DNA from: a virus | Lineage: Duplodnaviria; Heunggongvirae; Uroviricota; Caudoviricetes | Direction: 5' to 3' (one strand) | Length of the DNA: 37,937 nucleotides | IMG/VR virus record: IMGVR_UViG_2585427766_000015 | Part shown: in pieces, positions 5,284 through 37,937 of the stretch | Position numbering within the stretch: position 1 is the stretch's first letter | Layout of the letters: each line of letters begins with the position of its first letter | The notes under the pieces: generated by a model | Seen by the model: only the letters and a program-made list of their open reading frames with translations | Database searches by the model: none | Told to the model about the DNA's origin: nothing | Made by a program: the position numbers and the translations under genes

Positions 5284-5448
5284 TTGCTAACGAATCATCC
5301 TGGACTTCATATGCCCCAGGCGGCTACTTCGTGGGCGTCCTGCCTGTTCGTTTTTGACATTTACTGACTGCTTACGACACATGCACCGTGTTGCAACCAG
5401 ATTTTGTTGTAATCCTGTAGTTGGTCTGGAACAAAAGATAAAATTAAA

Positions 5449-5485
5449 TTGCGAGATATGCAAGTGATATTTGCGAGATATGCAA
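5449..5485. promoter_or_regulatory. OL-like tandem operators: two perfect copies of palindromic TTGCGAGATATGCAA, with a putative leftward promoter
   Basis: Copies at 5449-5463 and 5471-5485 match the TTGC-N7-GCAA site in the cI-cro intergenic region; minus-strand TTGCAT -35 and TATCTT -10-like elements overlap them. Confidence 0.5.
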
Positions 5486-5491
5486 ATTTAT

Positions 5492-5520
5492 GGGTAATAA
5501 AAAGCCACCTTTCGGTGGCC
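5492..5520 (-). terminator. Rho-independent terminator downstream of the cI-like repressor gene
   Basis: Minus-strand GCCACC-GAAA-GGUGGC hairpin followed by UUUUUAUUA, about 20 nt after the repressor stop. Confidence 0.6.
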
Positions 5521-5539
5521 GATGGATGGGATATTGAGG

Positions 5540-6232
5540 TTAATTATGTCTCTTAAGGGTTTGCGACTGACTGATTAAGACCTTTCCAAAGACCATGAAT
5601 CGGTGTTCGTTTTCGCTAGTAATTCCCCATTCACGGTAAATCTGGTTATCAGAAATCACCAGCAGTTTGTCAGGAATCATTTGAAGTCTTTTAACGTATA
5701 TTTTGTCATCAAAACCAAAGACATATATACCATCACCATCAAACTGATTGATGCTGACATCAACGAAGATGAGATCTCCTGGCTCAATGGTTGGACACAT
5801 ACTGTCCCCACGAACGTTGATAACTTTGATGTGATTGGCTGGTCGTCCGCCGAACATTGATACAGCATTATCAGTTCTGTATTCGATGGCATGAATCACA
5901 TCAATGACATCACCGCCTTGGATAAGGCCATTTCCCGCACTGGCACTGATATCCAGCATTTCAATACGGAACACATCCTTCACCTGCGCAACATCCTCAT
6001 TATTACTGTTTTTATATACAGTATTACTTTTGTGGGCAGAGGTAAAGAGATCAGCAATATCAACACCTAAGCTCTTGGCAATATTACTCAGTGTTTGTTC
6101 GGTAAATTGTTTTTGCTTACCCGTTTCTAAGCGCGAGATGTTCGCCGCATCTACTCCTATCGCTTCAGCGAGATCGGCGATTTTCATGTTCTTCGCTTGG
6201 CGAAGTTGTCTGACTCGGTTTCCTATGTTCAT
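5540..6232 (-). CDS. CI-like prophage repressor (N-terminal HTH, C-terminal S24 LexA-like autopeptidase domain), 230 aa
   Basis: N-terminal HTH (KIADLAEAIGVDAANISRLETG); C-terminal GDSMCPTIEPGDLIFVD with downstream Lys (Ser-Lys dyad); divergent from a cro-like gene. Confidence 0.9.
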   Translation of the reverse strand: MNIGNRVRQLRQAKNMKIADLAEAIGVDAANISRLETGKQKQFTEQTLSNIAKSLGVDIADLFTSAHKSNTVYKNSNNEDVAQVKDVFRIEMLDISASAGNGLIQGGDVIDVIHAIEYRTDNAVSMFGGRPANHIKVINVRGDSMCPTIEPGDLIFVDVSINQFDGDGIYVFGFDDKIYVKRLQMIPDKLLVISDNQIYREWGITSENEHRFMVFGKVLISQSQTLKRHN

Positions 6233-6329
6233 GCGTTTATTACATTTCTTTATTGCGTGATAAGCAAATCAACTTGCGCAAAATAATTGCGTGAAATAAC
6301 ATGCATAACGCGCAATATTTGGAGGGCAT
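6233..6329. promoter_or_regulatory. Immunity switch region (OR-like operators and divergent promoters)
   Basis: Perfect operator TTGCGTGATAAGCAA at 6253-6267 plus degenerate TTGCG-containing copies (TTGCGCAA, ATTGCGTG, CGCGCAAT); GGAGGG Shine-Dalgarno before cro ATG. Confidence 0.6.
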
Positions 6330-6590
6330 ATGCAATCACCATTACGAAATGTGCGTAAGGCGCATGGTTTCACTTTGCAGCATGTTGCTGCGGGTGTTCA
6401 AGTCAATCCAGCGACGTTGAGTCGTATTGAGAGGCTGGAGCAGATTCCATCTATCGAGCTTGCAGAACGTTTAGCCAATTTTTTTAAGGGTGAAGTCAGC
6501 GAAATGCAGATTCTTTATCCGGCACGTTTTCAATCTAGCCAAAACCAGAATGGGTTTAAACCACAGGAACAGGAGGTGAACCGTGGGTAA
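6330..6590 (+). CDS. Cro-like HTH (XRE family) regulator, 86 aa
   Basis: HTH motif FTLQHVAAGVQVNPATLSRIE; position divergent from the repressor. Confidence 0.75.
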   Translation: MQSPLRNVRKAHGFTLQHVAAGVQVNPATLSRIERLEQIPSIELAERLANFFKGEVSEMQILYPARFQSSQNQNGFKPQEQEVNRG

Positions 6591-7134
6591 GCATCACTGG
6601 AAAGTAGAAAAACAGCCTGAGTGGTACGTGAAAGCTGTCAGAAAAACTATCGCGGCGTTGCCGGGTGGTTACGCTGAAGCGGCTGACTGGCTGGATGTAA
6701 CAGAGAACGCATTATTTAACCGCCTTCGTGCCGATGGCGATCAGATTTTCCCGCTGGGATGGGCAATGATTTTGCAACGTGCTGGTGGAACTCACTTCAT
6801 TGCTGACGCTGTGGCGCAGTCTGCAAATGGCGTCTTTGTGTCTCTTCCTGACGTCGAGGATGTGGACAACGCCGATATTAACCAGCGTCTGCTGGAAGTC
6901 ATTGAACAGATCGGCAGTTATTCAAAACAGATTCGTTCAGCAATCGAAGACGGTGTAGTGGAACCGCATGAGAAGACAGCAATTAACGACGAGCTGTATC
7001 TCTCAATTTCGAAGCTGCAGGAGCATGCAGCACTGGTCTACAAAATCTTTTGCATTTCAGAAAGTAATGACGCCCGCGAGTGTGCAGCTCCGGGCGCCGT
7101 GGCGTGTCGTGACTGTGGAGAAACTAACGCATGA
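6583..7134 (+). CDS. Putative regulatory protein (CII/YdaT-like position), 183 aa
   Basis: Positional analogy (gene after cro) and vague family resemblance only. Confidence 0.4.
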
Positions 7135-11823: not shown

Positions 11824-11841
11824 CCCCGGCTTAAGCCGGGG
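11824..11841. terminator. GC-rich hairpin (CCCCGGC-TTAA-GCCGGGG) between the convergent Q-like and NYN genes; possible bidirectional terminator
   Basis: 7-bp perfect stem with short T-rich flanks on both strands; the NYN stop codon lies in the loop. Confidence 0.45.
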
Positions 11842-12694
11842 ATGTTTCAGATTGAAGTGTTTTTTTCTTGGGCTCGTTCTTAGATGATTTTGTTTTCTTT
11901 TGACGATTGAGTTTTTTCTCTTTGCGTCTGTCAATATAATCGTCCCACCAATCAGGTTTTACTGTTGGGACGATTCTGCAAATATCAGCAATTGCAACAA
12001 CAATGTTGCTCGATTGCACTCCATCGACGTGCTCTGCCAGTGAGGGAGGAACTTGTTGGTTCATTGGATCGAGGATAAAATCTACACCCTTTATACGGGC
12101 ATGTTTAGCGGCAGGAACGAAATCAGCATCGCCAGCAATCAGGACGATCACATCAACTAGTTTCTCATGAGCAAGGATAGTTATATCCATACCAAGCTTA
12201 ATATCGACGGCTTTTTGTTTATATTCGTAGTAGAAATCGTCGTTAGTTAACTCAGACCATTGAATTTCATTACGTAATAGTTTCTTAAGAGTATGTTCTT
12301 TTATTTGCCAGTTACCGACGTTTGAAAGAATACCCATACGAAGTGCCGTTTTACGATTCTTCCTTAGCTCCTCATGAAGCTTGTTTCGTAAAACATTCGG
12401 AGCATGTGTCTTGAAGTTTTTAGTTGATGGGGTTTTGTTGTCTCCATCAGGCAAAGGATACTTAATCTGTTTATCAAGCGGCGGGCAGTCGTAATAGTAA
12501 ATACGGTAAAGCTCAAGTGGTTCACGGTCAGCGTGAGCACCATGTCGAACCTCTACATGAAATTTAACAATTCGCCAGATTATTTTAACAAGTTGTTGGC
12601 TGTCTAACTCATGCCCAGGGAAATGTTTTCGTAGAAAGTAATCAATCCGACGGATGAAGTAGCCGCCGTCAATCAAGACTGCTGTTTTCTTCAT
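11831..12694 (-). CDS. NYN-domain (PIN-like) putative ribonuclease with Lys-rich C-terminal tail, about 287 aa
   Basis: Conserved acidic motifs of the NYN/LabA fold (LIDGGYF, VDIKLGMD, IAGDADFVPA); start taken at the ATG at 12694 (MKKTAV); the ORF track extends to a GTG at 12706. Confidence 0.8.
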   Translation of the reverse strand: MKKTAVLIDGGYFIRRIDYFLRKHFPGHELDSQQLVKIIWRIVKFHVEVRHGAHADREPLELYRIYYYDCPPLDKQIKYPLPDGDNKTPSTKNFKTHAPNVLRNKLHEELRKNRKTALRMGILSNVGNWQIKEHTLKKLLRNEIQWSELTNDDFYYEYKQKAVDIKLGMDITILAHEKLVDVIVLIAGDADFVPAAKHARIKGVDFILDPMNQQVPPSLAEHVDGVQSSNIVVAIADICRIVPTVKPDWWDDYIDRRKEKKLNRQKKTKSSKNEPKKKTLQSETSPA

Positions 12695-12706
12695 TGAAAA
12701 ACTCAC

Positions 12707-13448: not shown

Positions 13449-14501
13449 ATGAAAAATACTGTAAAAATAAACAGTGTTGATTTAATCAACGCTGATTGCC
13501 TGCATTTTATTCAGTCCCTGCCTGATGATTCCATTGACCTGATTGTTACCGATCCGCCGTACTTCAAGGTGAAACCCAACGGCTGGGACAATCAGTGGAA
13601 AGGGGACGAAGATTACCTTAAGTGGCTGGACCACTGTCTGGCCCAGTTCTGGCGGGGGTTAAAACCTGCCGGAAGCCTTTACCTGTTCTGTGGGCATCGC
13701 CTGGCATCTGATATTGAGATCATGATGCGTGAACGTTTCAACGTGCTTAACCATATCATCTGGGCGAAGCCGTCCGGACGTTGGAATGGGTGTAATAAAG
13801 AAAGTCTGCGCGCATATTTTCCTGCCACAGAGCGCGTTCTGTTTGCTGAACATTACCAGGGGCCATATCGCGGCAAAAGTGACGGCTATGCGGCAAAAGA
13901 AAGGGAACTCAAACAGCACATAATGGCACCGCTGATATCGTATTTCAGGGATGCTCGTGCCGAACTGGGTATAACGGCAAAACAAATTGCCGAAGCCACA
14001 GGTAAGAAAAATATGGTTTCCCACTGGTTTGGTGCCAGTCAGTGGCAGTTGCCGAATGAGGCTGACTATCGGAAGTTACAGGCACTGTTTTCCCGTATAG
14101 CGGCAGAGAAGTTTCAGGAACAACAACTGGAACAACCACACCACCAGCTGGTGGCATCTTATGATTCACTGAATCGCAAATATTCTGAATTGCTGGATGA
14201 GTTTAAATCTCTCCGGCGCTATTTCTCCGTATCAGTCTCCGTGCCTTATACCGATGTCTGGACGCATAAGCCCGTTCAGTTCTACCCGGGTAAACATCCG
14301 TGCGAGAAACCGGCGGATATGCTCCGGCAAATAATCAATGCCAGTAGTCGACCTGGTGATCTGGTTGCTGATTTCTTTATGGGATCCGGTTCCACAATAA
14401 AAGCAGCAATGGCGCTGGGGCGTCGGGCGTTAGGTGTTGAACTTGAGTCAGAGCGGTTTAATCAGACGGTGAAAGAGGTAAGTGAACTGGTGGGGAAATA
14501 A
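13449..14501 (+). CDS. DNA methyltransferase (N6-adenine/N4-cytosine type, beta-class), 350 aa
   Basis: N-terminal DPPY motif (DLIVTDPPYF) and C-terminal AdoMet-binding FxGxG (FFMGSGST). Confidence 0.85.
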   Translation: MKNTVKINSVDLINADCLHFIQSLPDDSIDLIVTDPPYFKVKPNGWDNQWKGDEDYLKWLDHCLAQFWRGLKPAGSLYLFCGHRLASDIEIMMRERFNVLNHIIWAKPSGRWNGCNKESLRAYFPATERVLFAEHYQGPYRGKSDGYAAKERELKQHIMAPLISYFRDARAELGITAKQIAEATGKKNMVSHWFGASQWQLPNEADYRKLQALFSRIAAEKFQEQQLEQPHHQLVASYDSLNRKYSELLDEFKSLRRYFSVSVSVPYTDVWTHKPVQFYPGKHPCEKPADMLRQIINASSRPGDLVADFFMGSGSTIKAAMALGRRALGVELESERFNQTVKEVSELVGK

Positions 14502-15760: not shown

Positions 15761-15902
15761 TACTCCTGTACCGTTTATACCTAATCCGCTGACGTATGGT
15801 GCCAGTCTGGAGCTGAATGTGAGTCTGTTGTCTGCGCTGGCTAACTGCAATCGGGATAAAGCTGATATTCGTAAAATAGATGCAGAGAGAACTAACCATT
15901 AA
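15645..15902 (+). CDS. Rz1-like outer-membrane lipoprotein spanin (o-spanin), about 85 aa, overlapping the Rz 3' end in the +1 frame
   Basis: Lipoprotein signal peptide with lipobox (MMIVLHVLCLLPLLTGC), Pro-rich mature region. Confidence 0.6.
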   Translation: MMIVLHVLCLLPLLTGCGSTRTVYVSVPVAPLPPSLTSDTPVPFIPNPLTYGASLELNVSLLSALANCNRDKADIRKIDAERTNH

Positions 15903-15923
15903 GCAATAAAATTGTCAAATTAA

Positions 15924-16550
15924 TCAGTTGTCAAATGAATATACGTTAAAGGTATATGTCGACATAATTTCACCAAGTACCTCAATACATACACTTTTTT
16001 TATGAAAATTACTGGGAAATGAACTTAGCTCCTCAAGACATTGCACATAAGTGCTGATATCACTTGCATCACGTTCAAGGAATTTCACTTGACCAAAAGA
16101 AGGAGTTTTAATCTTGGTTCTTTGCTGGATTATATGGATAAAGTGTGTAGTTGGTGAAACTATTACTCTTGAAATATCGGAAATGATGTCTTCTTGAACT
16201 TGCCGATAAAGTAAATCCTTTGGGTAATGGTGTTTAATCTCGATGGTTGCAACATTGCCATTATGTTCAGACGTTAATATCGACTGGTTATAAAGTGATA
16301 TGTCAACAGCGCCGATACCGAGTTTTGGATGCTCACTTAAAGCAGTTAGTGTGCTGATTTGATTGAGTATAACAACTAACTCATCACGTATTTGTGTTTC
16401 ATGTTTGCGATTGTAGAAGTAGCCATTCAGTTCATTTAACTTTTTATGCATCCTATCGTGACTAATTGCTTCGATCAGTAAATCCTGAATCATACTTTTC
16501 TCTAGATAATCCGAACGGTTGTAAGTGACAGTATTGTGCTGGCATGTCAT
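15924..16550 (-). CDS. Hypothetical protein, 208 aa (possibly 189 aa from internal ATG), AT-rich; candidate nuclease-like effector
   Basis: Downstream gene of an antisense two-gene cassette; GAVDIS ... (17 aa) ... ATIEIKHHY has the spacing of a PD-(D/E)xK core (inference only). Confidence 0.6.
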   Translation of the reverse strand: MTCQHNTVTYNRSDYLEKSMIQDLLIEAISHDRMHKKLNELNGYFYNRKHETQIRDELVVILNQISTLTALSEHPKLGIGAVDISLYNQSILTSEHNGNVATIEIKHHYPKDLLYRQVQEDIISDISRVIVSPTTHFIHIIQQRTKIKTPSFGQVKFLERDASDISTYVQCLEELSSFPSNFHKKSVCIEVLGEIMSTYTFNVYSFDN

Positions 16551-16593
16551 TAATATGTAAAGGTATTGTGAATGCCAGAAAGATAACGAAGTA

Positions 16594-16947
16594 TCATCGA
16601 TAGAAAAACTTTACAGCCCACTCGTAAACAGCTTTGTAAATCGGTTCATGGTAAATACTATCGATACTATTCAGATGTGCGATCATCGCCTCCACAGTTG
16701 TAGTGGTTGTTTCTAATATTTCGATTATTGCAGGGCGGTCATCATCTTCATCGAAGTATTCGAACAGCAGTACAGGTTTACCATGCAATTCAGCATCTGA
16801 GACTCTAAGGTTACAACTACCGCTCAACTCAAAGTGAATTTTGTAATTACCTTCTACAGAATGGCCTACGGGGAAAAAGTATAGGGTGTCATCTTTGTTC
16901 AAAAGCCATTCCCATTCATAACTATTCATTTGTGAACTCCTGTTCAT
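16594..16947 (-). CDS. Hypothetical acidic protein, 117 aa, AT-rich; upstream gene of the antisense cassette
   Basis: ORF with acidic cluster (EYFDEDDDRPAIIEILETTTTT); 43-bp gap to the downstream ORF suggests an operon. Confidence 0.6.
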   Translation of the reverse strand: MNRSSQMNSYEWEWLLNKDDTLYFFPVGHSVEGNYKIHFELSGSCNLRVSDAELHGKPVLLFEYFDEDDDRPAIIEILETTTTTVEAMIAHLNSIDSIYHEPIYKAVYEWAVKFFYR

Positions 16948-17079
16948 TGAGTTTCAACAACTATCAACTACATCCAGCGAAGCATAAAAGATCGTTTATG
17001 GCAAAACCGGAATGGAGTGCGATTCGATTCTGAGAAGGGTGCCACGTATCGTACGCGAACCATCCAAGAGGATTATGCA

Positions 17080-17430
17080 ATGCCCCTACGAACCCCAAAA
17101 GCCTGCCGCGTTCGCGGCTGCCGTAATACCACTACAGACCCGTCAGGCTACTGCGAAAGCCACAAAAACGAAGGCTGGAAACAATACAAGCCGGGGCAAT
17201 CTCGTCATCAGCGCGGTTATGGTTCGAAGTGGGACAGTATCCGCGCGCGTGTGCTGAAGCGTGACAAAGGTTTATGTCAATTATGTCTGCATGCTGGTGT
17301 GGTGGGTGAGGCGAAAACCGTTGACCACATCATTCCCAAAGCGCATGGCGGCACCGATGCCGACAGTAACCTGCAGAGTCTGTGCTGGCCGTGTCATAAG
17401 GCGAAGACGGCCCGTGAACGGCTGAAGTAA
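17080..17430 (+). CDS. HNH endonuclease (terminase-associated), about 116 aa
   Basis: HNH motif (VDHIIPKAHGGTDADSNLQSLCWPCH) with Cys pairs; AAGAGGA Shine-Dalgarno before the ATG at 17080; sits upstream of TerS as in HK97-like cos phages. Confidence 0.85.
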   Translation: MPLRTPKACRVRGCRNTTTDPSGYCESHKNEGWKQYKPGQSRHQRGYGSKWDSIRARVLKRDKGLCQLCLHAGVVGEAKTVDHIIPKAHGGTDADSNLQSLCWPCHKAKTARERLK

Positions 17431-27099: not shown

Positions 27100-27419
27100 T
27101 TGAGCTTGTACTTAAAAAACCGATCATCGCCCACAAAGAAACACTGCATGTGCTGGAAATACGTGAGCCTACGTATGACGAGATTGAGGCGCTGGGGTTC
27201 CCTTTCTCTGTTTCACCTGATGGTGGTATGAAAATGGACAGTCAGGTAGCGCTGAAATATATCCCGCTTCTGGCCGGGATCCCGCGCTCGTCTGCAGCGC
27301 AGATGACGAAGCTGGATATTTTCAAGGCAGGCATGATTGTAATGCGTTTTTTTACCGGCTTGGAGACGGAAGAGACCTCCGGAAGCGATTCTACAATGTC
27401 GCGTGGTTCTGGAAATTAA
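27096..27419 (+). CDS. Tail assembly chaperone, 107 aa (with likely -1 frameshift extension to 27511)
   Basis: Position before the tape measure; T7 slippery run at 27347-27353 with the -1 frame open to 27511. Confidence 0.6.
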   Translation: MIELVLKKPIIAHKETLHVLEIREPTYDEIEALGFPFSVSPDGGMKMDSQVALKYIPLLAGIPRSSAAQMTKLDIFKAGMIVMRFFTGLETEETSGSDSTMSRGSGN

Positions 27420-27503
27420 ACCCCCTTGAACTTCGCCGGACGGCTATTTCCCACTTTGCTGATCTGGAGGCAGAGGCCGTCCGTATAAATGAGGAGATGA
27501 AGC

Positions 27504-29426
27504 ATGGCTGATAATTTTCAGCTGAAAGCCATCATCACCGCCGTTGACAGGCTGTCCGGCCCGCTTAAAGGTATGCAGCGTCAGCTTAAGGGGTTTCAGA
27601 AAGAAGTCTCCAGCCTTGCTCTGGGCGCTGCCGGGGCGGGTACTGCAATAATGGGGGCACTGGCACTCCCTGTAAAATCAGCCATCACCCTTGAATCGAA
27701 GATGGCTGATGTCCGCAAAGTGGTGGACGGTCTGGATACGCCGGATGCGTTTAAGGCCATGACGGAGCAGGTACGCGCTTTGTCTACTGAGCTTCCCATG
27801 TCTGCAGACGGGATCGCGGAAATTGTGGCGGCTGGCGGTCAGGCCGGGATTGCACGTGATGAACTGATGCAGTTTGCCACTGATGCGGTGAAGATGGGCG
27901 TGGCCTTTGATACAACGGCTGAAGAGTCCGGGCAGATGATGGCCCAGTGGCGTACTGCGTTTAATATGACGCAGGATGAAGTGGCCGGGCTGGCTGACAA
28001 AATCAACTACCTTGGTAATACCGGCCCGGCGAATGCGAAGAAAATCTCCGATATTGTTACGCGTATTGGTCCTTTAGGTGGTGTTGCAGGTGTGGCTTCC
28101 GGCGAAATCGCGGCAATGGGGGCAACCATTGCCGGGATGGGCGTGGAGTCAGAAATTGCCGCCACAGGGATCAAGAACTTCATGCTTTCCCTGACCGCGG
28201 GAAATTCCGCGACAAAATCGCAGAAACAGGCATTACGTTTTCTGCGGATCAATCCGAAGAAATTAGCTGCTGATATGCAGAAAGATGCCCGGGGAACCAT
28301 GCTGTCTGTACTGGATGCGATGGCTAAAGTGCCCAAAGAAAAACAGGCAGCTGTGCTGAATGCCCTGTTCGGGAAAGAGTCTCTGGGCGCGATAGCACCT
28401 CTGCTGACTAACCTTGATTTGTTGCGTACCAACTTCAGGCGGGTTGCGGATTCCCAGCAGTATGGCAGTTCGATGCAGAAGGAATATGCTTCGAGGGCAG
28501 CGACGACGGAAAACCAGCTTTTACTTCTGCAAAATCAACTTGATGCCATTTCTTCCACGCTGGGGGAAACGTTTCTTCCTGAGGTTAATGATGGTCTTGA
28601 AGCGGTAAAACCGCTCCTTGAGGAAGTGAGAACGTTTGTCCGTGAAAACCCGGAGCTCGTTAAGACCATTGCTAAAATCGGTCTGGCCTTACTGACGGTG
28701 GGAGCCGCTGCAGGCTCTTTGTCCAGAATTATGAAAGTTCTCGGCGGTGTGATGAATATGACGCCTGCTAAGGGGCTGATTGCTCTTCTGGTTGGTGGCG
28801 CTTACCTCATTATTGATAACTGGGAAACCGTAGGCCCTGTCATAAAAAAAGTCTGGCACGTGGTGGATGAAACGGCGCAGGCGATGGGGGGATGGGAAAC
28901 TGTTCTGAAAGCGATTGCCCTGTTTATGGCAACCAAATGGGTTGCTGACGTTACCAAATCCATTACCGCAGTGACCAGAGAGATGCGTACGCTGGGGAAG
29001 GTATCGGCAGAAACGGGATTGATGGGGAAAGGCCGCGGCTTTATCGGGAAGGCCGGGGTATATGGTTTTCTGGGAACCCTGATGTATGAGCCGGTTAAAG
29101 ATACTCTGGAAAGTGTTGTTCCTGAAGATACGGTTAACTGGCTGGATAATAAAGGGCTGTTTCTGGCTTCAGACTGGACGCCTTTTTTTGATCGTAAAGA
29201 GTACGAGCAGTATCAGGCCAGCCTGAGCCAGTACAAACCCAATGTTCCGCTGTTGAATCCATCTTCTTCCATGACACAGCACAGCGAGCTGAAAGTCACG
29301 TTCGAGAATGCTCCGCCAGGTATGAAGATAATTGATGTACCGGGCAAAGCCGATCCCCTGATGAAAATCACGCACGATGTGGGGTATTCCCCTTTTCGTT
29401 TTCCACGAGAACGCAGTTCTTTTTGA
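27504..29426 (+). CDS. Tail tape measure protein, 640 aa
   Basis: Long Ala/Gly-rich helical protein with hydrophobic segments, in tape-measure position. Confidence 0.85.
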   Translation: MADNFQLKAIITAVDRLSGPLKGMQRQLKGFQKEVSSLALGAAGAGTAIMGALALPVKSAITLESKMADVRKVVDGLDTPDAFKAMTEQVRALSTELPMSADGIAEIVAAGGQAGIARDELMQFATDAVKMGVAFDTTAEESGQMMAQWRTAFNMTQDEVAGLADKINYLGNTGPANAKKISDIVTRIGPLGGVAGVASGEIAAMGATIAGMGVESEIAATGIKNFMLSLTAGNSATKSQKQALRFLRINPKKLAADMQKDARGTMLSVLDAMAKVPKEKQAAVLNALFGKESLGAIAPLLTNLDLLRTNFRRVADSQQYGSSMQKEYASRAATTENQLLLLQNQLDAISSTLGETFLPEVNDGLEAVKPLLEEVRTFVRENPELVKTIAKIGLALLTVGAAAGSLSRIMKVLGGVMNMTPAKGLIALLVGGAYLIIDNWETVGPVIKKVWHVVDETAQAMGGWETVLKAIALFMATKWVADVTKSITAVTREMRTLGKVSAETGLMGKGRGFIGKAGVYGFLGTLMYEPVKDTLESVVPEDTVNWLDNKGLFLASDWTPFFDRKEYEQYQASLSQYKPNVPLLNPSSSMTQHSELKVTFENAPPGMKIIDVPGKADPLMKITHDVGYSPFRFPRERSSF

Positions 29427-29435
29427 GGTCAGTCT

Positions 29436-30812
29436 ATGGATTTATCCTCATTTCCCACCCGACCTTCATTACTTTCGTCGTCTTCAGGCTGGCGTGACAG
29501 ACTTCAGGAGGCGTCATTTCGCGGCGTGTCGTTTAAGGTTGAAGAAGAAAGTGCGGGAACCGGTCGCCGTGTGGAAACACATGAATACCCGAACCGCGAC
29601 AAACCCTATACCGAAGACCTGGGGAAAATCACTTTTTGCCCGTCCATCACGGCTTATGTGGTGGGAGATGACTGCTTTGACCAGCGCGATCGCCTGATTG
29701 ACGCGCTGAATAAACCCGGTCCCGGCACGCTTGTCCATCCGACATACGGTGAGCTGAAAGTCTGTGTTGACGGAGAAGTTCGGGTCAGCACATCGAAAAG
29801 TGAAGGGCGTATTGTCCGCTTTGACCTGAAGTTTGTCGAAGCGGGAGAACTCTCTTACCCCACATCAGGTGCGGCGACGGCGCAGACGCTGATGTCATCC
29901 TGTTCTGCACTGGATGACTGCATCAGTGACAGCTTCAGCGGTTTCAGTATCGATGGCGTGGCGGATTTTGTGCAGAACGACGTCGTTGGTAATGCCGGCA
30001 CAATGCTTGGGTATATTTCTGATGCGATGAAAGTGGTGGATTCTGCCGTATCGGATGCTGCCAGGCTGTTGCAGGGGGATATCTCGGTACTTCTGCCGCC
30101 ACCATCGTCAGGCAAAAATTTCGTTGAGCAGGTGCAGAAAATGTGGCGTACCGGGAAACGCCTTTATGGTAACGCCAGCGACCTGGTCACCATGATCAAA
30201 ACGCTTTCCGGTGTCAGCCTCGGCAGCGATCTGCAACCGCGCGGCGTCTGGAAAACGGACAGTAAAACCACCGCCACGGCGACGCAGCAGCGTAATGTGG
30301 TTGCCAGCACTCTTCGTACGACCGCAATCAGCGAAGCGGCGTATGCCGTCACCCGATTGCCTGCGCCAACAACTTCCGCGGTGATGCAGAATTCCGCAGT
30401 GGGGCAGGCAACAACACCTGCGCAGAGCACTGGTTGGCCTTCCGTCACGCATCCGGCACTGAACAATGCACCGGCGGTGAAAAACACGGTTGACCTGCCA
30501 ACGTGGGAAGAACTGACCGACATTCGCGACACACTGAATACGGCAATTGATAAGGAGTTGTCCCGTACAACCAGTGATGCGCTGTTTCTGGCGCTGCGCC
30601 GGGTGAAAGCAGATCTGAATGCGGATATCAACACGCGCCTTGAACAGTCTGCACGGATCATTCAGCGCACGCCGGATGAGGTTTTACCCGCGCTGGTGCT
30701 GGCGGCGACCTGGTTTGATAACGCGGCGCGTGACGCGGACATTATCCGGCGTAATGCCATTACGCATCCTGGCTTTGTGCCGGTGATCCCTCTGAAGGTG
30801 CCAGTGCAATGA
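29436..30812 (+). CDS. DNA circulation protein (Mu gpN-like), 458 aa
   Basis: N-terminal WRDRLQEASFRGVSFKVEE motif typical of Mu N-like proteins. Confidence 0.75.
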   Translation: MDLSSFPTRPSLLSSSSGWRDRLQEASFRGVSFKVEEESAGTGRRVETHEYPNRDKPYTEDLGKITFCPSITAYVVGDDCFDQRDRLIDALNKPGPGTLVHPTYGELKVCVDGEVRVSTSKSEGRIVRFDLKFVEAGELSYPTSGAATAQTLMSSCSALDDCISDSFSGFSIDGVADFVQNDVVGNAGTMLGYISDAMKVVDSAVSDAARLLQGDISVLLPPPSSGKNFVEQVQKMWRTGKRLYGNASDLVTMIKTLSGVSLGSDLQPRGVWKTDSKTTATATQQRNVVASTLRTTAISEAAYAVTRLPAPTTSAVMQNSAVGQATTPAQSTGWPSVTHPALNNAPAVKNTVDLPTWEELTDIRDTLNTAIDKELSRTTSDALFLALRRVKADLNADINTRLEQSARIIQRTPDEVLPALVLAATWFDNAARDADIIRRNAITHPGFVPVIPLKVPVQ

Positions 30813-34484: not shown

Positions 34485-35546
34485 ATGCATCGTATAGACA
34501 CGAAAACCGCGCAGAAGGATAAGTTCGGCGCGGGTAAGAACGGTTTTACCCGTGGTAACCCACAGACTGGCACACCTGCCACCGATCTGGATGATGACTA
34601 CTTTGATATGTTGCAGGAAGAACTCTGCAGCGTGGTGGAGGCATCCGGTGCCAGCCTGGAGAAGGGGCGAAACGACCAGTTGCTTACCGCGCTTCGTGCG
34701 CTGCTGTTAAGTCGTAAAAATCCGTTTGGCGATATCAAATCGGATGGCACTGTGCAAACGGCTCTCGAAAACCTGCAATTGAGAGAATCATTTTCTGGCG
34801 TTGTTGGGCAATCGCGAAATGCCAGAATGTTAGTGGCTGCCGCGAGTGTTACAGCGACATTTTCAGCCGATGAGTTGATTGTTGAAGATGGTGATGGACG
34901 CCAGTATCGATTGAGTAATTTCAATAAATCTGTAGATCTGATGAATACTGGGGCTGGTGGTATGGATACGGGGACAGTGCCGGAAACAGGATTTGTTGCT
35001 TTGTATGCGATTTATAATCCGACTACTTATATGTCGTCATTGCTTGCGGTAAACGCAACCACCGCTGGATTGCCAGAGATTTATGGTGGTTCGGCATTAC
35101 CTCATGGCTATACTGCCAGCGCACTGGTAAGTGTTTGGGGTATTTCAAAATCAAAATTCAAAACTGGAATGCAACATGGGCGGGTAATTAACACTGACCG
35201 TCAGATAGCAATAACAACAACCGCAAAAATAAACAATCTAACTGAGTTATCTATTGCCTCGATTGTTCCAAAAAATGCAAGAAAAGTGAGCGGCTATGGT
35301 TCTATCTATGCAACATCAGGTGATGAGAAATCGGGCGGTTTAATTATAGATGTCGCATCCACCAGTAGTGGTGTTGGACGCGTATCAATCGGTGGGTATG
35401 TTGGGAATTATGGTATAGGGGTTTATGGTCAGTTTACAGAATTATTGCTATCAACCCCGCAATCAATTTTTTATGACGTGAATCCAGACGGCACATCAAT
35501 CACGGAGTTTTCTGCATCATTATTTATCAGTGGGTATACGATATGA
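34485..35546 (+). CDS. Tail fibre protein, 353 aa
   Basis: Conserved fibre N-terminus ([47 protein letters not shown]) with divergent, lower-GC C-terminal region. Confidence 0.7.
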
Positions 35547-35707
35547 TTTATGCCGAATTAACACCAGATGAAAAGTCAATTGTTGCATTGTTCTCATGTG
35601 AGCAAGAAAATACTACGCAGATTCATAAAAATGATGTGCGCTATATTGAGTTTTATAACCTACAACCAAAGTTCATTCAGAAGCTACTGCCTACACCGGC
35701 GGTATAA
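35543..35707 (+). CDS. Hypothetical small ORF after tail fibre, 54 aa
   Basis: ATG overlapping the fibre stop; AT-rich; below the track cutoff; weak. Confidence 0.25.
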
Positions 35708-36065
35708 GGAACATGCCAATGACTGACTTGTTTCCCGGAGGCATAGTCCTGGCGGGATTTGATGTATCAACGCGCATCAGCAGATATTGAATAGCACGAT
35801 ATGCTTGTATAGGGAATTCTATCAGATATAATTGATGAGGCTGAACTGTGACACACAAAACGTTGCACTGGAATGTAATGTTTTGAATGCTTCTATGTTG
35901 AGGATGTAACGTGGTTTGAACTATTTACAGTATATATGATTATTCTACATATTGATGTCGATATGTATGAATGTTTTTATAAGTGAAGTGCATGCGAATA
36001 ATTCGCAATATGATTAGAGTCAATGTAATAGTTATTGACTCTAATTTATTACAAAATAACTTTAT

Positions 36066-37133
36066 TTAATGAAATTTAGTTCGGATGAATTGTTGCGATG
36101 GTTTTTCAATGAGTATATATGACATATAGCTAATTGCTATTAATGTAAGCATGAACAAAATGAATACATTGGGGCTGTAAAAAATATCGCGTCCATAGCC
36201 AATCTTGTCAGCTAAATAAACAACAATGATTTGCAAAGGAAAATGTAAAAGATAAGATGAATAACTGATATCACCCAACCATTCAATTTTCTTCCCAAAA
36301 TCGTTTCGTATTGCGCTAATTGATACAAGGAAAAAGATTATGGAGGTAAATCCGAATAAGATAATTGAGAATATGTCTGCTACTTGCAGGGTAAAAATAA
36401 ATCCCCATGAGATCAATAGAAAAACACAAGCAAAAATAAAAAATAATTTTGCACCAATATTTTTTATGACCGCAATCGTAATTTTATAGGTCAGGCCACC
36501 AATAAAGAAAGAGAATGCGCCAATCATTATGGGATTGTTAATTTTGAAAAAGTAGTACGACAATGCAACTATTAAAATTGATATGAATGTTGTTTTTGAT
36601 GTGAACTTGCATAATATAAAAAATATCATGTACATAAGTACTTCAATCGACACGGACCATGTCGGGGCGTTGAAGGACCAACCTCGCTCAAATCCCCATG
36701 ATTGAATCATCAATAAATTCAGAATGGCATGGTAAATGTCATTCATAGGATAAACAAAAAAATAATTATGACTTTTAAAGAAAATAATTTGTAATATTGC
36801 CACGACAGCAAATGTAAATATGTAAAGTGGATATAATCTACTGACACGGTTAACTATAAAAGTTTTTGCTGAGGTTTTATTGCTGTGTATGTTGTCAGCG
36901 TATAGATAAAAAAATATGAATCCAGAAATCATAAAAAACAATTCGACAGCATATAAACCGTAATGATAAAAGACGGAAAAAAATTCATAAAAAGGTTGGC
37001 GGTTTATGATTATGTCAGATGCAGCATTCTTTTTCATAAAAAAATGTTGCCAATGCCATAACACAACGGAAAGTGCGGCAAATCCTCTCAGAACATCCAG
37101 GGTATATATTCTCTTCCCAAAAACATTCGTCAC
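36066..37133 (-). CDS. Acyltransferase family 3 integral membrane protein (putative O-antigen/cell-surface polysaccharide acetyltransferase), 355 aa
   Basis: Multi-pass membrane protein with acyltransferase_3 hallmarks (LDVLRGFAALSVVLWH); very low GC; opposite orientation at the tail-fibre end of the prophage. Confidence 0.85.
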   Translation of the reverse strand: MTNVFGKRIYTLDVLRGFAALSVVLWHWQHFFMKKNAASDIIINRQPFYEFFSVFYHYGLYAVELFFMISGFIFFYLYADNIHSNKTSAKTFIVNRVSRLYPLYIFTFAVVAILQIIFFKSHNYFFVYPMNDIYHAILNLLMIQSWGFERGWSFNAPTWSVSIEVLMYMIFFILCKFTSKTTFISILIVALSYYFFKINNPIMIGAFSFFIGGLTYKITIAVIKNIGAKLFFIFACVFLLISWGFIFTLQVADIFSIILFGFTSIIFFLVSISAIRNDFGKKIEWLGDISYSSYLLHFPLQIIVVYLADKIGYGRDIFYSPNVFILFMLTLIAISYMSYILIEKPSQQFIRTKFH

Positions 37134-37606
37134 AACGAACCTCTTTTAATAAAGTCAAGTGATAATGAAAGATAAATATTGTAAACGAAAAAACACTGGA
37201 CTGGAACATATATCTCTGCCTGTAATTTAACCAAGATAATTTTACTAACGCAGTCATAATTCGTTCATGTATACCAGATGAAAGTACATGTTCTATGAAA
37301 TAGGGTTTTGCCTGGAGTTTGAAGGTTTTTAACGATTATACCTGTTTAATCGACTCCCCATGTTTTTTGACATTATCCACCGCACACGATACTGGATGCC
37401 AGGTAAACTGATTTGCTGGCATAAAGTCACTGAGAATTTTTTACCAACAATATCTTGCCACATCTTTTCCCGCACAGTTTCGGCAATAGAATCAGCGGGC
37501 AGCGGTCATCAATATTCACCAGACATTGATCTGCCGCACTATCTGACCGGTGTCCTGCTGAGAATACTAATTTCTTTTTTTGCAAGTGCTGTCCAATCAT
37601 GATTGG

Positions 37607-37937
37607 GGTGATGCTGCCAACTTACTGATTTAGTGTATGATGGTGTTTTTGAGGTGCTCCAGTGGCTTCTGTTTCTATCAGCTGTCCCTCCTGTTCAGCT
37701 ACTGACGGGGTGGTGCGTAACGGCAAAAGCACCGCCGGACATCAGCGCTATCTCTGCTCTCACTGCCGTAAAACATGGCAACTGCAGTTCACTTACACCG
37801 CTTCTCAACCCGGTACGCACCAGAAAATCATTGATATGGCCATGAATGGCGTTGGATGCCGGGCAACCGCCCGCATTATGGGCGTTGGCCTCAACACGAT
37901 TTTCCGCCATTTAAAAAACTCAGGCCGCAGTCGGTAA
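37607..37937 (+). mobile_element. IS1 insertion sequence, left end (partial; continues beyond window)
   Basis: Terminal inverted repeat GGTGATGCTGCCAACTTACTGATTTAGTGTATGATGGTG followed by insA. Confidence 0.9.
37662..37937 (+). CDS. insA: IS1 InsA protein, 91 aa
   Basis: [91 protein letters not shown] matches recalled IS1 InsA. Confidence 0.93.

What the first reader, a model, noticed from the sequence alone, without database searches (positions are those of the whole stretch)
15924..16947. Antisense AT-rich two-gene cassette between the lysis and packaging modules: candidate uncharacterised defence or toxin/immunity pair
Two co-directional minus-strand ORFs (117 aa acidic, then 208 aa) are inserted against the direction of the late operon, between Rz/Rz1 and HNH/TerS. 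This is the slot where lambda carries the moron bor, and in many prophages it is a defence hot spot. The cassette is markedly AT-rich relative to the flanking phage genes, which suggests independent acquisition. Neither protein resembles a family I can name. The 208-aa protein has a hydrophobic-D ... (17 residues) ... ExK arrangement (GAVDIS ... ATIEIKHHY) compatible with a PD-(D/E)xK nuclease core. The 117-aa protein carries an acidic cluster (EYFDEDDDRP), as seen in immunity proteins, antitoxins or DNA mimics. The 43-bp spacing suggests co-transcription.
Basis: partly seen in the sequence, partly recalled or inferred. Interest (0 to 1): 0.72.

Follow-up and report, generated by a model that had tools for sequence, protein, structure and literature searches.

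The report
Two stacked prophage morons; one nuclease
Two small AT-rich genes lie backwards between the lysis and packaging genes of an E. coli prophage; they are independent accessory genes rather than a matched pair, and the larger one is very probably a new stand-alone DNA-cutting enzyme of the restriction-enzyme fold, with unproven function.

Summary
Two minus-strand genes (A, 111 aa; B, 189 aa by conserved starts) lie in a 1208-bp AT-rich segment (37% vs 51% GC). This segment replaces 72 bp of phage SfV between Rz1 and HNH.

B is very probably an active PD-(D/E)xK nuclease:
- The model is confident (pLDDT 84) with alpha-beta-beta-beta-alpha-beta order.
- Across 31 relatives down to 19% identity, only K30, E32, D64, E85 and K87 are invariant.
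- It matches no Pfam, NCBIfam or PADLOC family, and only 42 relatives exist among 1.84 billion representatives.

The "toxin/immunity pair" reading is not supported. Outside E. coli, A and B each occur alone in the same slot, each next to the small-terminase start. B occurs without any partner and mostly without a methyltransferase.

A 36-bp fossil of a foreign terminase start (16998-17033) shows the cassette was imported from a lambdoid phage.

A has no detectable relatives of known function. Its model is poor, and two weak leads failed.

The slot is variable, but its other sampled cargo is not known defence. Defence by B is plausible and untested. This is a new member of a known kind, of moderate interest.

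The parts
15872..17079 (.). Inserted/replaced segment (moron stack), 1208 bp, GC 0.371
   Evidence: Homology to phage SfV stops at 15871 and resumes at 17080. SfV has only 72 bp here, with Rz1 abutting HNH. Composition.
15924..16493 (-). Gene B: 189-aa solitary PD-(D/E)xK nuclease candidate (WP_000613842.1; phrog_12494). The maximal ORF extends to 16550 (208 aa).
16233..16406 (-). Codons of the catalytic core of B: K30 (16406-16404), E32 (16400-16398), D64 (16304-16302), E85 (16241-16239), K87 (16235-16233)
   Evidence: These are the only five invariant columns in a 31-sequence alignment reaching 19% identity. E32 lies in helix 29-46, D64 just before strand 65-68, and E85/K87 in strand 80-89 of the model. 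Codons read.
16494..16593 (-). A-B intergenic region (100 bp). It holds a sigma-70-like site, TTTACA-17-CACAAT (16561..16533), and a direct repeat CACAATAC x2 spaced 32 bp apart (16522-16538 and 16554-16570).
   Evidence: These are consensus matches only; function is not shown.
16594..16929 (-). Gene A: 111-aa acidic protein (pI 4.56; WP_001089763.1; phrog_14397), function unknown. The maximal ORF extends to 16947 (117 aa).
   Evidence: dN/dS 0.055-0.14. The AF2 model is poor, pLDDT 52.
16998..17033 (+). Fossil of the 5' end of a foreign small-terminase gene (MAKPEWSAIRF*), 68 bp from the start of A
   Evidence: Matches the N-termini MAKPDWG(E/A/V)LQ of intact TerS genes that lie 66-68 bp from A homologues in L010, L024 and L029. 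Comparable fossils lie 40 bp upstream of B in L006-L009.
17080..17430 (+). HNH endonuclease gene, the first gene of the resident packaging module (right flank; not part of the cassette)

Best explanation
The cassette is not one system. It is two separate accessory genes (morons) stacked in the variable slot between the lysis and packaging modules of an SfV-like E. coli prophage.

Origin. In their native lambdoid and P22-like contexts, each gene sits alone and antisense, directly next to the ribosome-binding site and start codon of the small terminase. The E. coli cassette was imported from such a phage and carried the first 11 codons of the donor's terminase with it. This step is shown.

Likely role of B. 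Most likely it is transcribed from its own promoter in the lysogen and cuts incoming foreign or phage DNA. It would then be a single-gene exclusion or defence nuclease. How it tells self from non-self is unknown; candidates are dependence on DNA modification, a specific DNA structure or sequence, or tight regulation. This step is inference only.

Gene A. It is an unrelated small acidic cytoplasmic protein. Its role is unknown, most plausibly protein binding, and it is not B's obligate partner.

Approximate confidence by step:
- Stacked independent morons: 0.85.
- B is an active PD-(D/E)xK nuclease: 0.8.
- B acts in defence or exclusion: 0.4.
For: Insertion:
- SfV has the same methyltransferase-holin-endolysin-Rz/Rz1-HNH order with no cassette. 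The breakpoints are 15871 and 17080.
- Related E. coli prophages have the slot empty or filled with other small genes.
- GC is 0.37 against 0.51 for the window. Both genes are AT-rich relative to their neighbours in every host examined.

Independence:
- B without A: L002-L009, L041, L043. In Citrobacter, B starts 40 bp from TerS with no upstream ORF.
- A without B: L010-L012 and L024-L031.

Import:
- TerS fossil at 16998-17033, with the same 66-68 bp spacing from A as next to intact TerS genes. Fossils also lie upstream of B in L006-L009.

Nuclease:
- Model pLDDT 84 / pTM 0.84 with alpha-beta-beta-beta-alpha-beta order.
- Only K30, E32, D64, E85 and K87 are invariant in 31 relatives.
- Sub-threshold hits of distant members all fall in PD-(D/E)xK families: HSDR_N, PDDEXK_9, DpnII-MboI, DUF234, REase_II, and SduA at 1e-5.

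Benefit to the host:
- B and A each survive in decayed prophage remnants in Pectobacterium.
- Both are under purifying selection.
Against: - No experimental data of any kind. No match to any of 5027 PADLOC defence models for B or A themselves.
- The accessions are absent from the DefensePredictor supplements.
- The other cargo sampled in this slot is not known defence.
- Within E. coli, A and B are never separated, and A is retained in the few genomes where B is truncated or interrupted. This is also what a toxin-antitoxin pair would show.
- An unprotected nuclease in the cell needs a self-protection mechanism that I could not identify.
- Promoter calls are consensus matches, no more frequent than in shuffled sequence.
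Confidence: 0.45

Rival explanations
1. Toxin/immunity or toxin-antitoxin pair. B is a toxic nuclease, and the acidic protein A, encoded upstream, binds and neutralises it. Phage infection or loss of A releases B, giving abortive infection or addiction.
For: - A and B are adjacent and co-directional, with A upstream, in all 79-80 E. coli carriers.
- No terminator is predicted between them.
- A is acidic (pI 4.56) with a conserved DEDDD loop.
- The few E. coli genomes with a damaged B keep A, and none has an intact B without A.
Against: - B homologues at 51-71% identity occur with no A in the locus in six other genera. They have either no upstream gene (Citrobacter) or unrelated neighbours.
- A homologues at 65-75% identity occur alone in many prophages.
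- All E. coli carriers belong to one lineage of at least 95% identity, so their co-occurrence counts as one event.
- The real gap is 100 bp with a promoter-like site.
- No TA or immunity family matches.
Confidence: 0.12
2. Type II restriction-modification. B is the endonuclease. Its cognate methyltransferase is the 350-aa DPPY enzyme (13449-14501), encoded 1.4 kb away across the lysis genes, or another methyltransferase elsewhere.
For: - The best structural matches of B are type II REases.
- A methyltransferase lies in the same late region in the window, and an 82%-identical copy lies in the Citrobacter locus that carries B.
- All E. coli carriers inspected have it.
Against: - SfV has the same methyltransferase (99% identical) with an empty slot.
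- No methyltransferase homologue or motif-bearing ORF lies within 5-8 kb of B in L002, L004-L009, L016-L018, L020 or L022. None is in the Pfam gene tables of L006-L009, L041 and L043.
- R and M genes of type II systems are normally adjacent. Here four lysis genes and opposite orientation separate them.
Confidence: 0.1
3. Selfish free-standing homing-type endonuclease. B cuts the conserved small-terminase start region of competing phages that lack it. It then spreads by recombinational repair, co-converting the flanking terminase 5' end.
For: - B abuts the conserved TerS start (40-41 bp) in L003 and L041, and a truncated TerS (38 bp) in L043.
- Fossil or chimeric TerS 5' ends mark junctions in the window, in L006-L009 and in L029-L031.
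- PD-(D/E)xK homing endonucleases are known from the literature (my own knowledge).
Against: - A shows the same terminase-abutting position and fossils without encoding any nuclease. Ordinary recombination in conserved flanks therefore explains the pattern.
- B is kept in decayed prophage remnants where homing is pointless.
- Antisense orientation and AT-richness fit lysogen-expressed morons.
Confidence: 0.08
4. B serves the phage's own lytic development rather than protecting the lysogen. Possible roles are host-DNA degradation, recombination-intermediate processing or anti-defence.
For: - Phages commonly encode PD-(D/E)xK enzymes for such roles.
- One 40%-identical relative is co-directional with a downstream Sf6-type small-terminase gene on a short metagenomic contig (L016).
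Against: - In the loci with B homologues of about 50% identity or more that lie in recognisable prophages, the gene is antisense to the late operon.
- It is dispensable: the slot is empty in SfV and many relatives.
- It is absent from all 50,697 isolated phage genomes.
- It is retained in prophage remnants.
Confidence: 0.1

Closest known systems
Type II restriction endonucleases of the EcoRV-like structural branch (R.SwaI 5TGQ, BglI, MspI, ThaI, EcoRV, HincII)
   Same: - Same alpha-beta-beta-beta-alpha-beta core.
- An acidic residue in helix 1, Asp before strand 2 and E-x-K in strand 3.
- Similar small size.
   Different: - No detectable sequence homology. Foldseek finds nothing significant.
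- No adjacent or consistently linked methyltransferase.
- Recognition specificity is unknown.
Shedu (SduA, DUF4263), a single-gene PD-(D/E)xK defence nuclease
   Same: - A stand-alone nuclease gene with no partner.
- One distant family member (P0054, 26% identical to B) matches the SduA model at E = 1e-5, exactly over helix 1, the D and the ExK.
   Different: - B itself and 30 other members do not match.
- B lacks the N-terminal sensor or regulatory domain; the matched PADLOC SduA profile has 360 positions against B's 189 residues.
- Membership is not established.
Lambda bor and other morons at the lysis/terminase junction
   Same: - Same genomic slot, opposite orientation to the late operon and deviant base composition.
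- Present or absent among close relatives. This fits the moron definition in PMC2629481.
   Different: The proteins are unrelated. Bor is an outer-membrane lipoprotein (my knowledge), whereas A and B have no signal peptide or hydrophobic segment that I could see by reading the sequences; their GRAVY values are -0.25 and -0.23.
Type II toxin-antitoxin or nuclease-immunity gene pairs
   Same: A small acidic protein is encoded immediately upstream of a putative nuclease, on the same strand.
   Different: The two genes are separable across genera and each is found alone. The 100-bp gap contains a promoter-like site. No TA or immunity family matches.

Membership tests
PD-(D/E)xK (restriction-endonuclease-like) nuclease superfamily | Core fold alpha-beta-beta-beta-alpha-beta | tested here: met
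   AF2 model with pLDDT 84 / pTM 0.84: H29-46, E50-53, E65-68, E80-89, H97-107, E117-127. This is a predicted structure, not a solved one.
PD-(D/E)xK (restriction-endonuclease-like) nuclease superfamily | Catalytic D ... (D/E)xK on strands 2 and 3, often with an acidic residue in helix 1, conserved across the family | tested here: met
   K30, E32, D64, E85 and K87 are the only invariant columns among 31 relatives at 19-59% identity. Their positions match the expected secondary-structure elements.
PD-(D/E)xK (restriction-endonuclease-like) nuclease superfamily | Structural similarity to solved members | tested here: inconclusive
   [not shown]
PD-(D/E)xK (restriction-endonuclease-like) nuclease superfamily | Metal-dependent nuclease activity | not testable with these tools
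   Needs biochemistry.
Type II restriction-modification system | Cognate methyltransferase genetically linked to the endonuclease | tested here: not met
   The window's 350-aa methyltransferase occurs in SfV without B. Most B loci have no methyltransferase within 5-8 kb. Only the E. coli and Citrobacter loci have one, across the lysis genes.
Type II toxin-antitoxin / toxin-immunity pair | Conserved co-occurrence and operon organisation of the two genes | tested here: not met
   They co-occur only in one E. coli lineage. Each gene is found alone in other genera. The gap is 100 bp with a promoter-like site.
Type II toxin-antitoxin / toxin-immunity pair | Toxicity of one partner neutralised by the other | not testable with these tools
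   Needs expression experiments. No complex prediction was available.
Shedu (SduA / DUF4263) | Match to the DUF4263 nuclease-domain model | tested here: inconclusive
   B has no hit. One of 31 relatives hits SduA at 1e-5 over the catalytic core. That member shows no Pfam hit to a family named DUF4263 at E up to 1.
Known anti-phage defence systems (PADLOC-DB v2) | Profile match to any component | tested here: not met
   No hits for A or B at E <= 1.
Moron (independently acquired accessory gene in a phage operon) | Present or absent among closely related phages at a fixed site, deviant composition, own transcription signals | tested here: met
   Absent from SfV and many E. coli relatives at the same junction. 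GC 0.37 against 0.51. Antisense orientation. Promoters are only consensus-level.

The most novel reading that the evidence does not exclude
B founds a previously unnamed family of minimal, partner-less restriction-fold nucleases. Temperate phages of Enterobacterales carry them next to their terminase gene as a single-gene defence. The family would discriminate self from non-self without its own methyltransferase or antitoxin. It might read a DNA modification, or rely on host housekeeping methylation such as Dam. A would then be a second, unrelated lysogen-expressed factor of a new kind.
Probability: 0.3. Interest if true: 0.6.

Novelty: new member of a known kind. Interest (0 to 1): 0.42.

Why it matters
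If B is an active lysogen-expressed nuclease, it adds a compact (189 aa) single-gene family to the prophage defence repertoire. It also raises a clean question: how does a restriction-fold enzyme avoid killing its host with no dedicated methyltransferase or antitoxin?

The terminase-start fossils give a concrete, datable trace of how accessory genes are shuttled between unrelated phage packaging modules.

For annotation, the result gives two "hypothetical protein" families (phrog_12494, phrog_14397) a structural assignment (B) or a defined context (A). It also warns against reading adjacent morons as two-gene systems.

Tried and rejected
1. Pfam, NCBIfam and PADLOC scans of A and B gave nothing meaningful. 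PHROGs gave only unknown-function families.
2. PDB sequence and profile searches for B found nothing.
3. Foldseek against PDB and BFVD gave no hit at E < 1e-3. AFDB50 was not available.
5. The A-family profile gave a sub-threshold PDB hit to the cysteine protease CPR-C4 (E 0.13). I rejected it: the catalytic Cys61 lies outside the aligned stretch of that hit, A has no conserved Cys, and the hit is not significant.
6. Four of 24 A-family members gave weak P22_AR_C hits. I rejected this by hhalign against P22 Ant (probability 0.1%).
7. A tandem 182-aa ORF beside a distant B relative is not a paralogue.
8. The co-resident genes in other loci match no defence family.
9. No Rfam family and no terminator in the region. 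No flanking repeats suggestive of a transposon or att site.
10. Literature and supplement searches for the accessions and PHROG ids returned nothing.
11. tblastn of A and B against 50,697 phage genomes found no match. Among 72,556 plasmid records, only one 19-kb record matched; it is probably a prophage fragment.

Full report
**1. What is there**

The window is almost a whole SfV-like prophage integrated next to tRNA-Thr/proA. It runs from integrase and the immunity region through Q, the lysis genes, HNH, a P27-family TerS, TerL and an HK97-type head to a contractile tail.

RefSeq annotators, the PHROG profiles and every homologue start further in. A starts at 16929 (111 aa, AGGAG 7 nt upstream). 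B starts at 16493 (189 aa, MIQDLL...). The real intergenic gap is therefore 100 bp, not 43 bp.

The region is AT-rich. GC is 0.353 for B, 0.393 for A and 0.371 for the insert. The window is 0.507, and HNH/TerS are 0.56-0.59.

Both are real genes:
- Homologues exist across Enterobacterales.
- dN/dS is 0.11-0.15 for B and 0.055-0.14 for A. Most between-genus comparisons are saturated at synonymous sites.

**2. It is an insertion in a variable slot**

Phage SfV has the same methyltransferase-holin-endolysin-Rz/Rz1 module (91.5% identical) followed directly by HNH. Homology to the window stops at 15871 and resumes at 17080. So 1208 bp in the window replace 72 bp in SfV.

I queried E. coli genomes with both flanks. 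Many related prophages have the empty, SfV-like configuration (span 1165 bp). Others carry different small cargo:
- a YodC-family gene (antisense);
- a GrlR-family gene (sense; phage SKA5 has an unnamed 106-aa sense ORF at the same place);
- hypotheticals of 145, 74 and 83 aa.

The slot is thus a real hot spot of variation.

The A+B cassette is present in 79-80 of 5426 complete E. coli genomes, always at 95% identity or more. That amounts to one lineage. It is absent from 50,697 isolated phage genomes. Among the plasmid records it appears in only one 19-kb record, which looks like a prophage fragment.

**3. A and B are separable**

B occurs without A:
- In Yersinia frederiksenii, Citrobacter, Proteus (51% identity), Enterobacter (the P0012 cluster, listed in 559 blocks of the collection) and Klebsiella electrica, B lies between the lysis and packaging genes, antisense to the late operon. 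No A homologue is in the locus.
- In Pectobacterium, B survives beside a truncated TerS in a prophage remnant.
- In Citrobacter, B starts 40 bp from the divergent TerS start with no upstream ORF at all.
- In Klebsiella it starts 41 bp from the TerS start.

A occurs without B:
- A homologues at 65-75% identity occur alone and antisense in at least three kinds of lambdoid prophage. They lie 66-68 bp from the start of the first packaging gene.
- One lies in a non-phage-looking context in Pectobacterium.

Both genes are AT-rich relative to neighbouring phage genes in every host. This pattern is what two independent morons that share a preferred slot would show. It is not what an obligate two-gene system would show.

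**4. A molecular fossil shows how the cassette arrived**

The block conserved upstream of A and B in other loci is the reverse complement of the TerS start, ATG GCA AAA CCG GAC TGG (MAKPDW), plus its Shine-Dalgarno sequence.

The window has this block too, at 16998-17033. It reads MAKPEWSAIRF-stop and lies 68 bp from A's start. Yet the window's own packaging module (HNH plus P27-family TerS) is of a different type. L006-L009 carry a similar 17-codon fossil 40 bp upstream of B. In L029-L031 a metallopeptidase gene begins with a chimeric MTKPDWGELQQR.

The morons therefore move with the terminase 5' end, and junctions fall within the first dozen or so codons of TerS. The E. coli cassette is an A unit, still attached to its terminase stub, with a B unit behind it. 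The whole was transplanted into an SfV-like phage.

**5. What B is**

Sequence searches:
- Pfam, NCBIfam, PADLOC and PDB sequence searches give nothing for B itself.
- An exhaustive HMM search of 1.84 billion representatives finds only 42 relatives.

Structure:
- The AlphaFold model is confident (pLDDT 84, pTM 0.84).
- It has the order helix 29-46, strands 50-53, 65-68 and 80-89, helix 97-107, strand 117-127.
- Rossmann-fold methyltransferases, an expected source of noise, do not exceed about 5.7.

Conservation:
- In a 31-sequence alignment reaching 19% identity, exactly five columns are invariant: K30, E32, D64, E85 and K87.
- These lie in helix 1, at the start of strand 2 and in strand 3. 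This is the canonical PD-(D/E)xK arrangement, with spacing close to that of EcoRV's E45/D74/D90/K92. The EcoRV numbers come from my own knowledge.
- Sub-threshold hits of distant members fall only in PD-(D/E)xK families: HSDR_N at 1.4e-4, PDDEXK_9, DpnII-MboI, DUF234 and REase_II. One member hits the Shedu SduA model at 1e-5 over the catalytic core.

Caveats:
- Foldseek found nothing significant.
- I could not superpose coordinates.

I put the probability that B is an active PD-(D/E)xK nuclease at about 0.8.

**6. How B might work**

No B-family locus outside E. coli and Citrobacter has a methyltransferase within 5-8 kb. The window's 350-aa methyltransferase is present in SfV without B. A classical R-M pair is therefore unlikely. 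It is not excluded for this lineage, because all E. coli carriers and the Citrobacter locus do have that methyltransferase.

B needs no conserved partner. It is dispensable for the phage. In the prophage loci with close homologues it is antisense to the late operon. It is under purifying selection, and it is retained after prophage decay in Pectobacterium.

The reading that best fits these facts is a lysogen-expressed, single-gene nuclease acting on incoming DNA. Its self/non-self rule is unknown; it could be modification-dependent, structure-specific, or reliant on host methylation. This step is inference, and I give it about 0.4.

Possible regulatory signals:
- In the window, a TTTACA-17-CACAAT site and a CACAATAC direct repeat (32-bp spacing) lie upstream of B.
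- In other genera, a perfect TATAAT overlaps the terminase start codon upstream of B.
- These are consensus matches only.

**7. What A is**

A is a 111-aa protein with pI 4.56. I saw no signal peptide or hydrophobic segment when reading the sequence, and its GRAVY is -0.25. It has a conserved SLYFYP motif, an invariant D45, a conserved DEDDD loop and a C-terminal YHEPIYK..YEWA helix. Its family is confined to Enterobacterales.

The model is unreliable (pLDDT 52). Two weak leads, CPR-C4 protease and P22_AR_C, were tested and rejected.

All I can say is that A is a conserved, independently mobile, terminase-abutting moron. It most plausibly acts by binding another protein. A DNA-mimic or antitoxin role is not supported by anything beyond its charge.

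**8. Verdict**

The PD-(D/E)xK guess is substantially strengthened. The "pair" interpretation is not supported, and the defence role is plausible but untested.

B is a new, small family within a well-known superfamily, sitting in a known type of phage accessory slot. That makes it a new member of a known kind, of moderate interest. The terminase-start fossils are a neat by-product, documenting moron transfer between unrelated packaging modules.

Noticed in passing
window 16998-17033 (+): A 36-bp fossil, MAKPEWSAIRF*, of the 5' end of a Terminase_2/Sf6-type small-terminase gene lies 68 bp from A's start. The window's own TerS is P27-family. Similar fossils or chimeric starts occur at L006-L009 position 5960 and L029-L031 position 4934.
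   Followed up: yes
window 11831-12706 (-): A second AT-rich antisense accessory gene (NYN-domain protein, about 287 aa) lies between the Q antiterminator gene and the late-operon leader. E. coli ECONIH1 has a different 339-aa ORF there (L015 857-1876), and SfV has none. This looks like another variable slot.
   Followed up: partly
window 16522-16538 and 16554-16570: A direct repeat of CACAATAC (minus strand), 32 bp apart, lies in the A-B intergenic region. One copy overlaps the -10-like hexamer upstream of B. It could be an operator or a chance match.
   Followed up: no
window 13449-14501 (+): A 350-aa DPPY DNA methyltransferase lies upstream of the holin. It is shared with SfV orf48 (99% identical) and with a Citrobacter prophage (82%). 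No cognate endonuclease is evident, and its specificity is unknown.
   Followed up: partly
NZ_CP180607.1 (E. coli PS1Thumoskin9), about 892411-894745; corresponds to window ~16380: B appears to be split by an insertion of about 1.26 kb, while A remains intact. The size suggests an IS element. I did not inspect it.
   Followed up: no
L043 6567-7570 (Pectobacterium brasiliense); L028 5001-5336 (Pectobacterium sp.): In L043, B sits with a truncated TerS (131 aa, MAIPDWEAIE...) stranded among ordinary chromosomal genes. In L028, A sits likewise. These look like prophage remnants that kept only the morons, which hints at host benefit.
   Followed up: partly
L041 7001-8650 (Klebsiella electrica, P22-like prophage): Here B is followed on the same strand by a 56-aa hydrophobic ORF and a ClpP-like protease gene. 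This shows that other cargo accumulates behind B in the slot.
   Followed up: no
L021 2-1001 (metagenome contig): A distant B relative (P0060) starts 2 bp after a TerB-domain ORF ends (Pfam TerB, 4.4e-11). This is a possible two-gene arrangement in a remote branch of the family.
   Followed up: no
L002 7080-9222 (Yersinia frederiksenii prophage): B is flanked by two further AT-rich ORFs (240 aa and 206 aa) with no Pfam or PADLOC match. To my eye the 206-aa protein has an R...S-T-S...E-x-E pattern reminiscent of ADP-ribosyltransferases; this is unverified. By my reading of their sequences (not tested here), the ORFs at 5514-6152 and 6125-6697, which lie between this slot and TerS, look like a Mom-like and a ParB-like gene.
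   Followed up: partly
window 5353-6557, 27125-29495 and 34775-37937: These stretches of the window do not align to the otherwise 97-99% identical prophage of E. coli 40EC. They look like mosaic replacements in the early region and the tail/tail-fibre region. I did not examine them.
   Followed up: no
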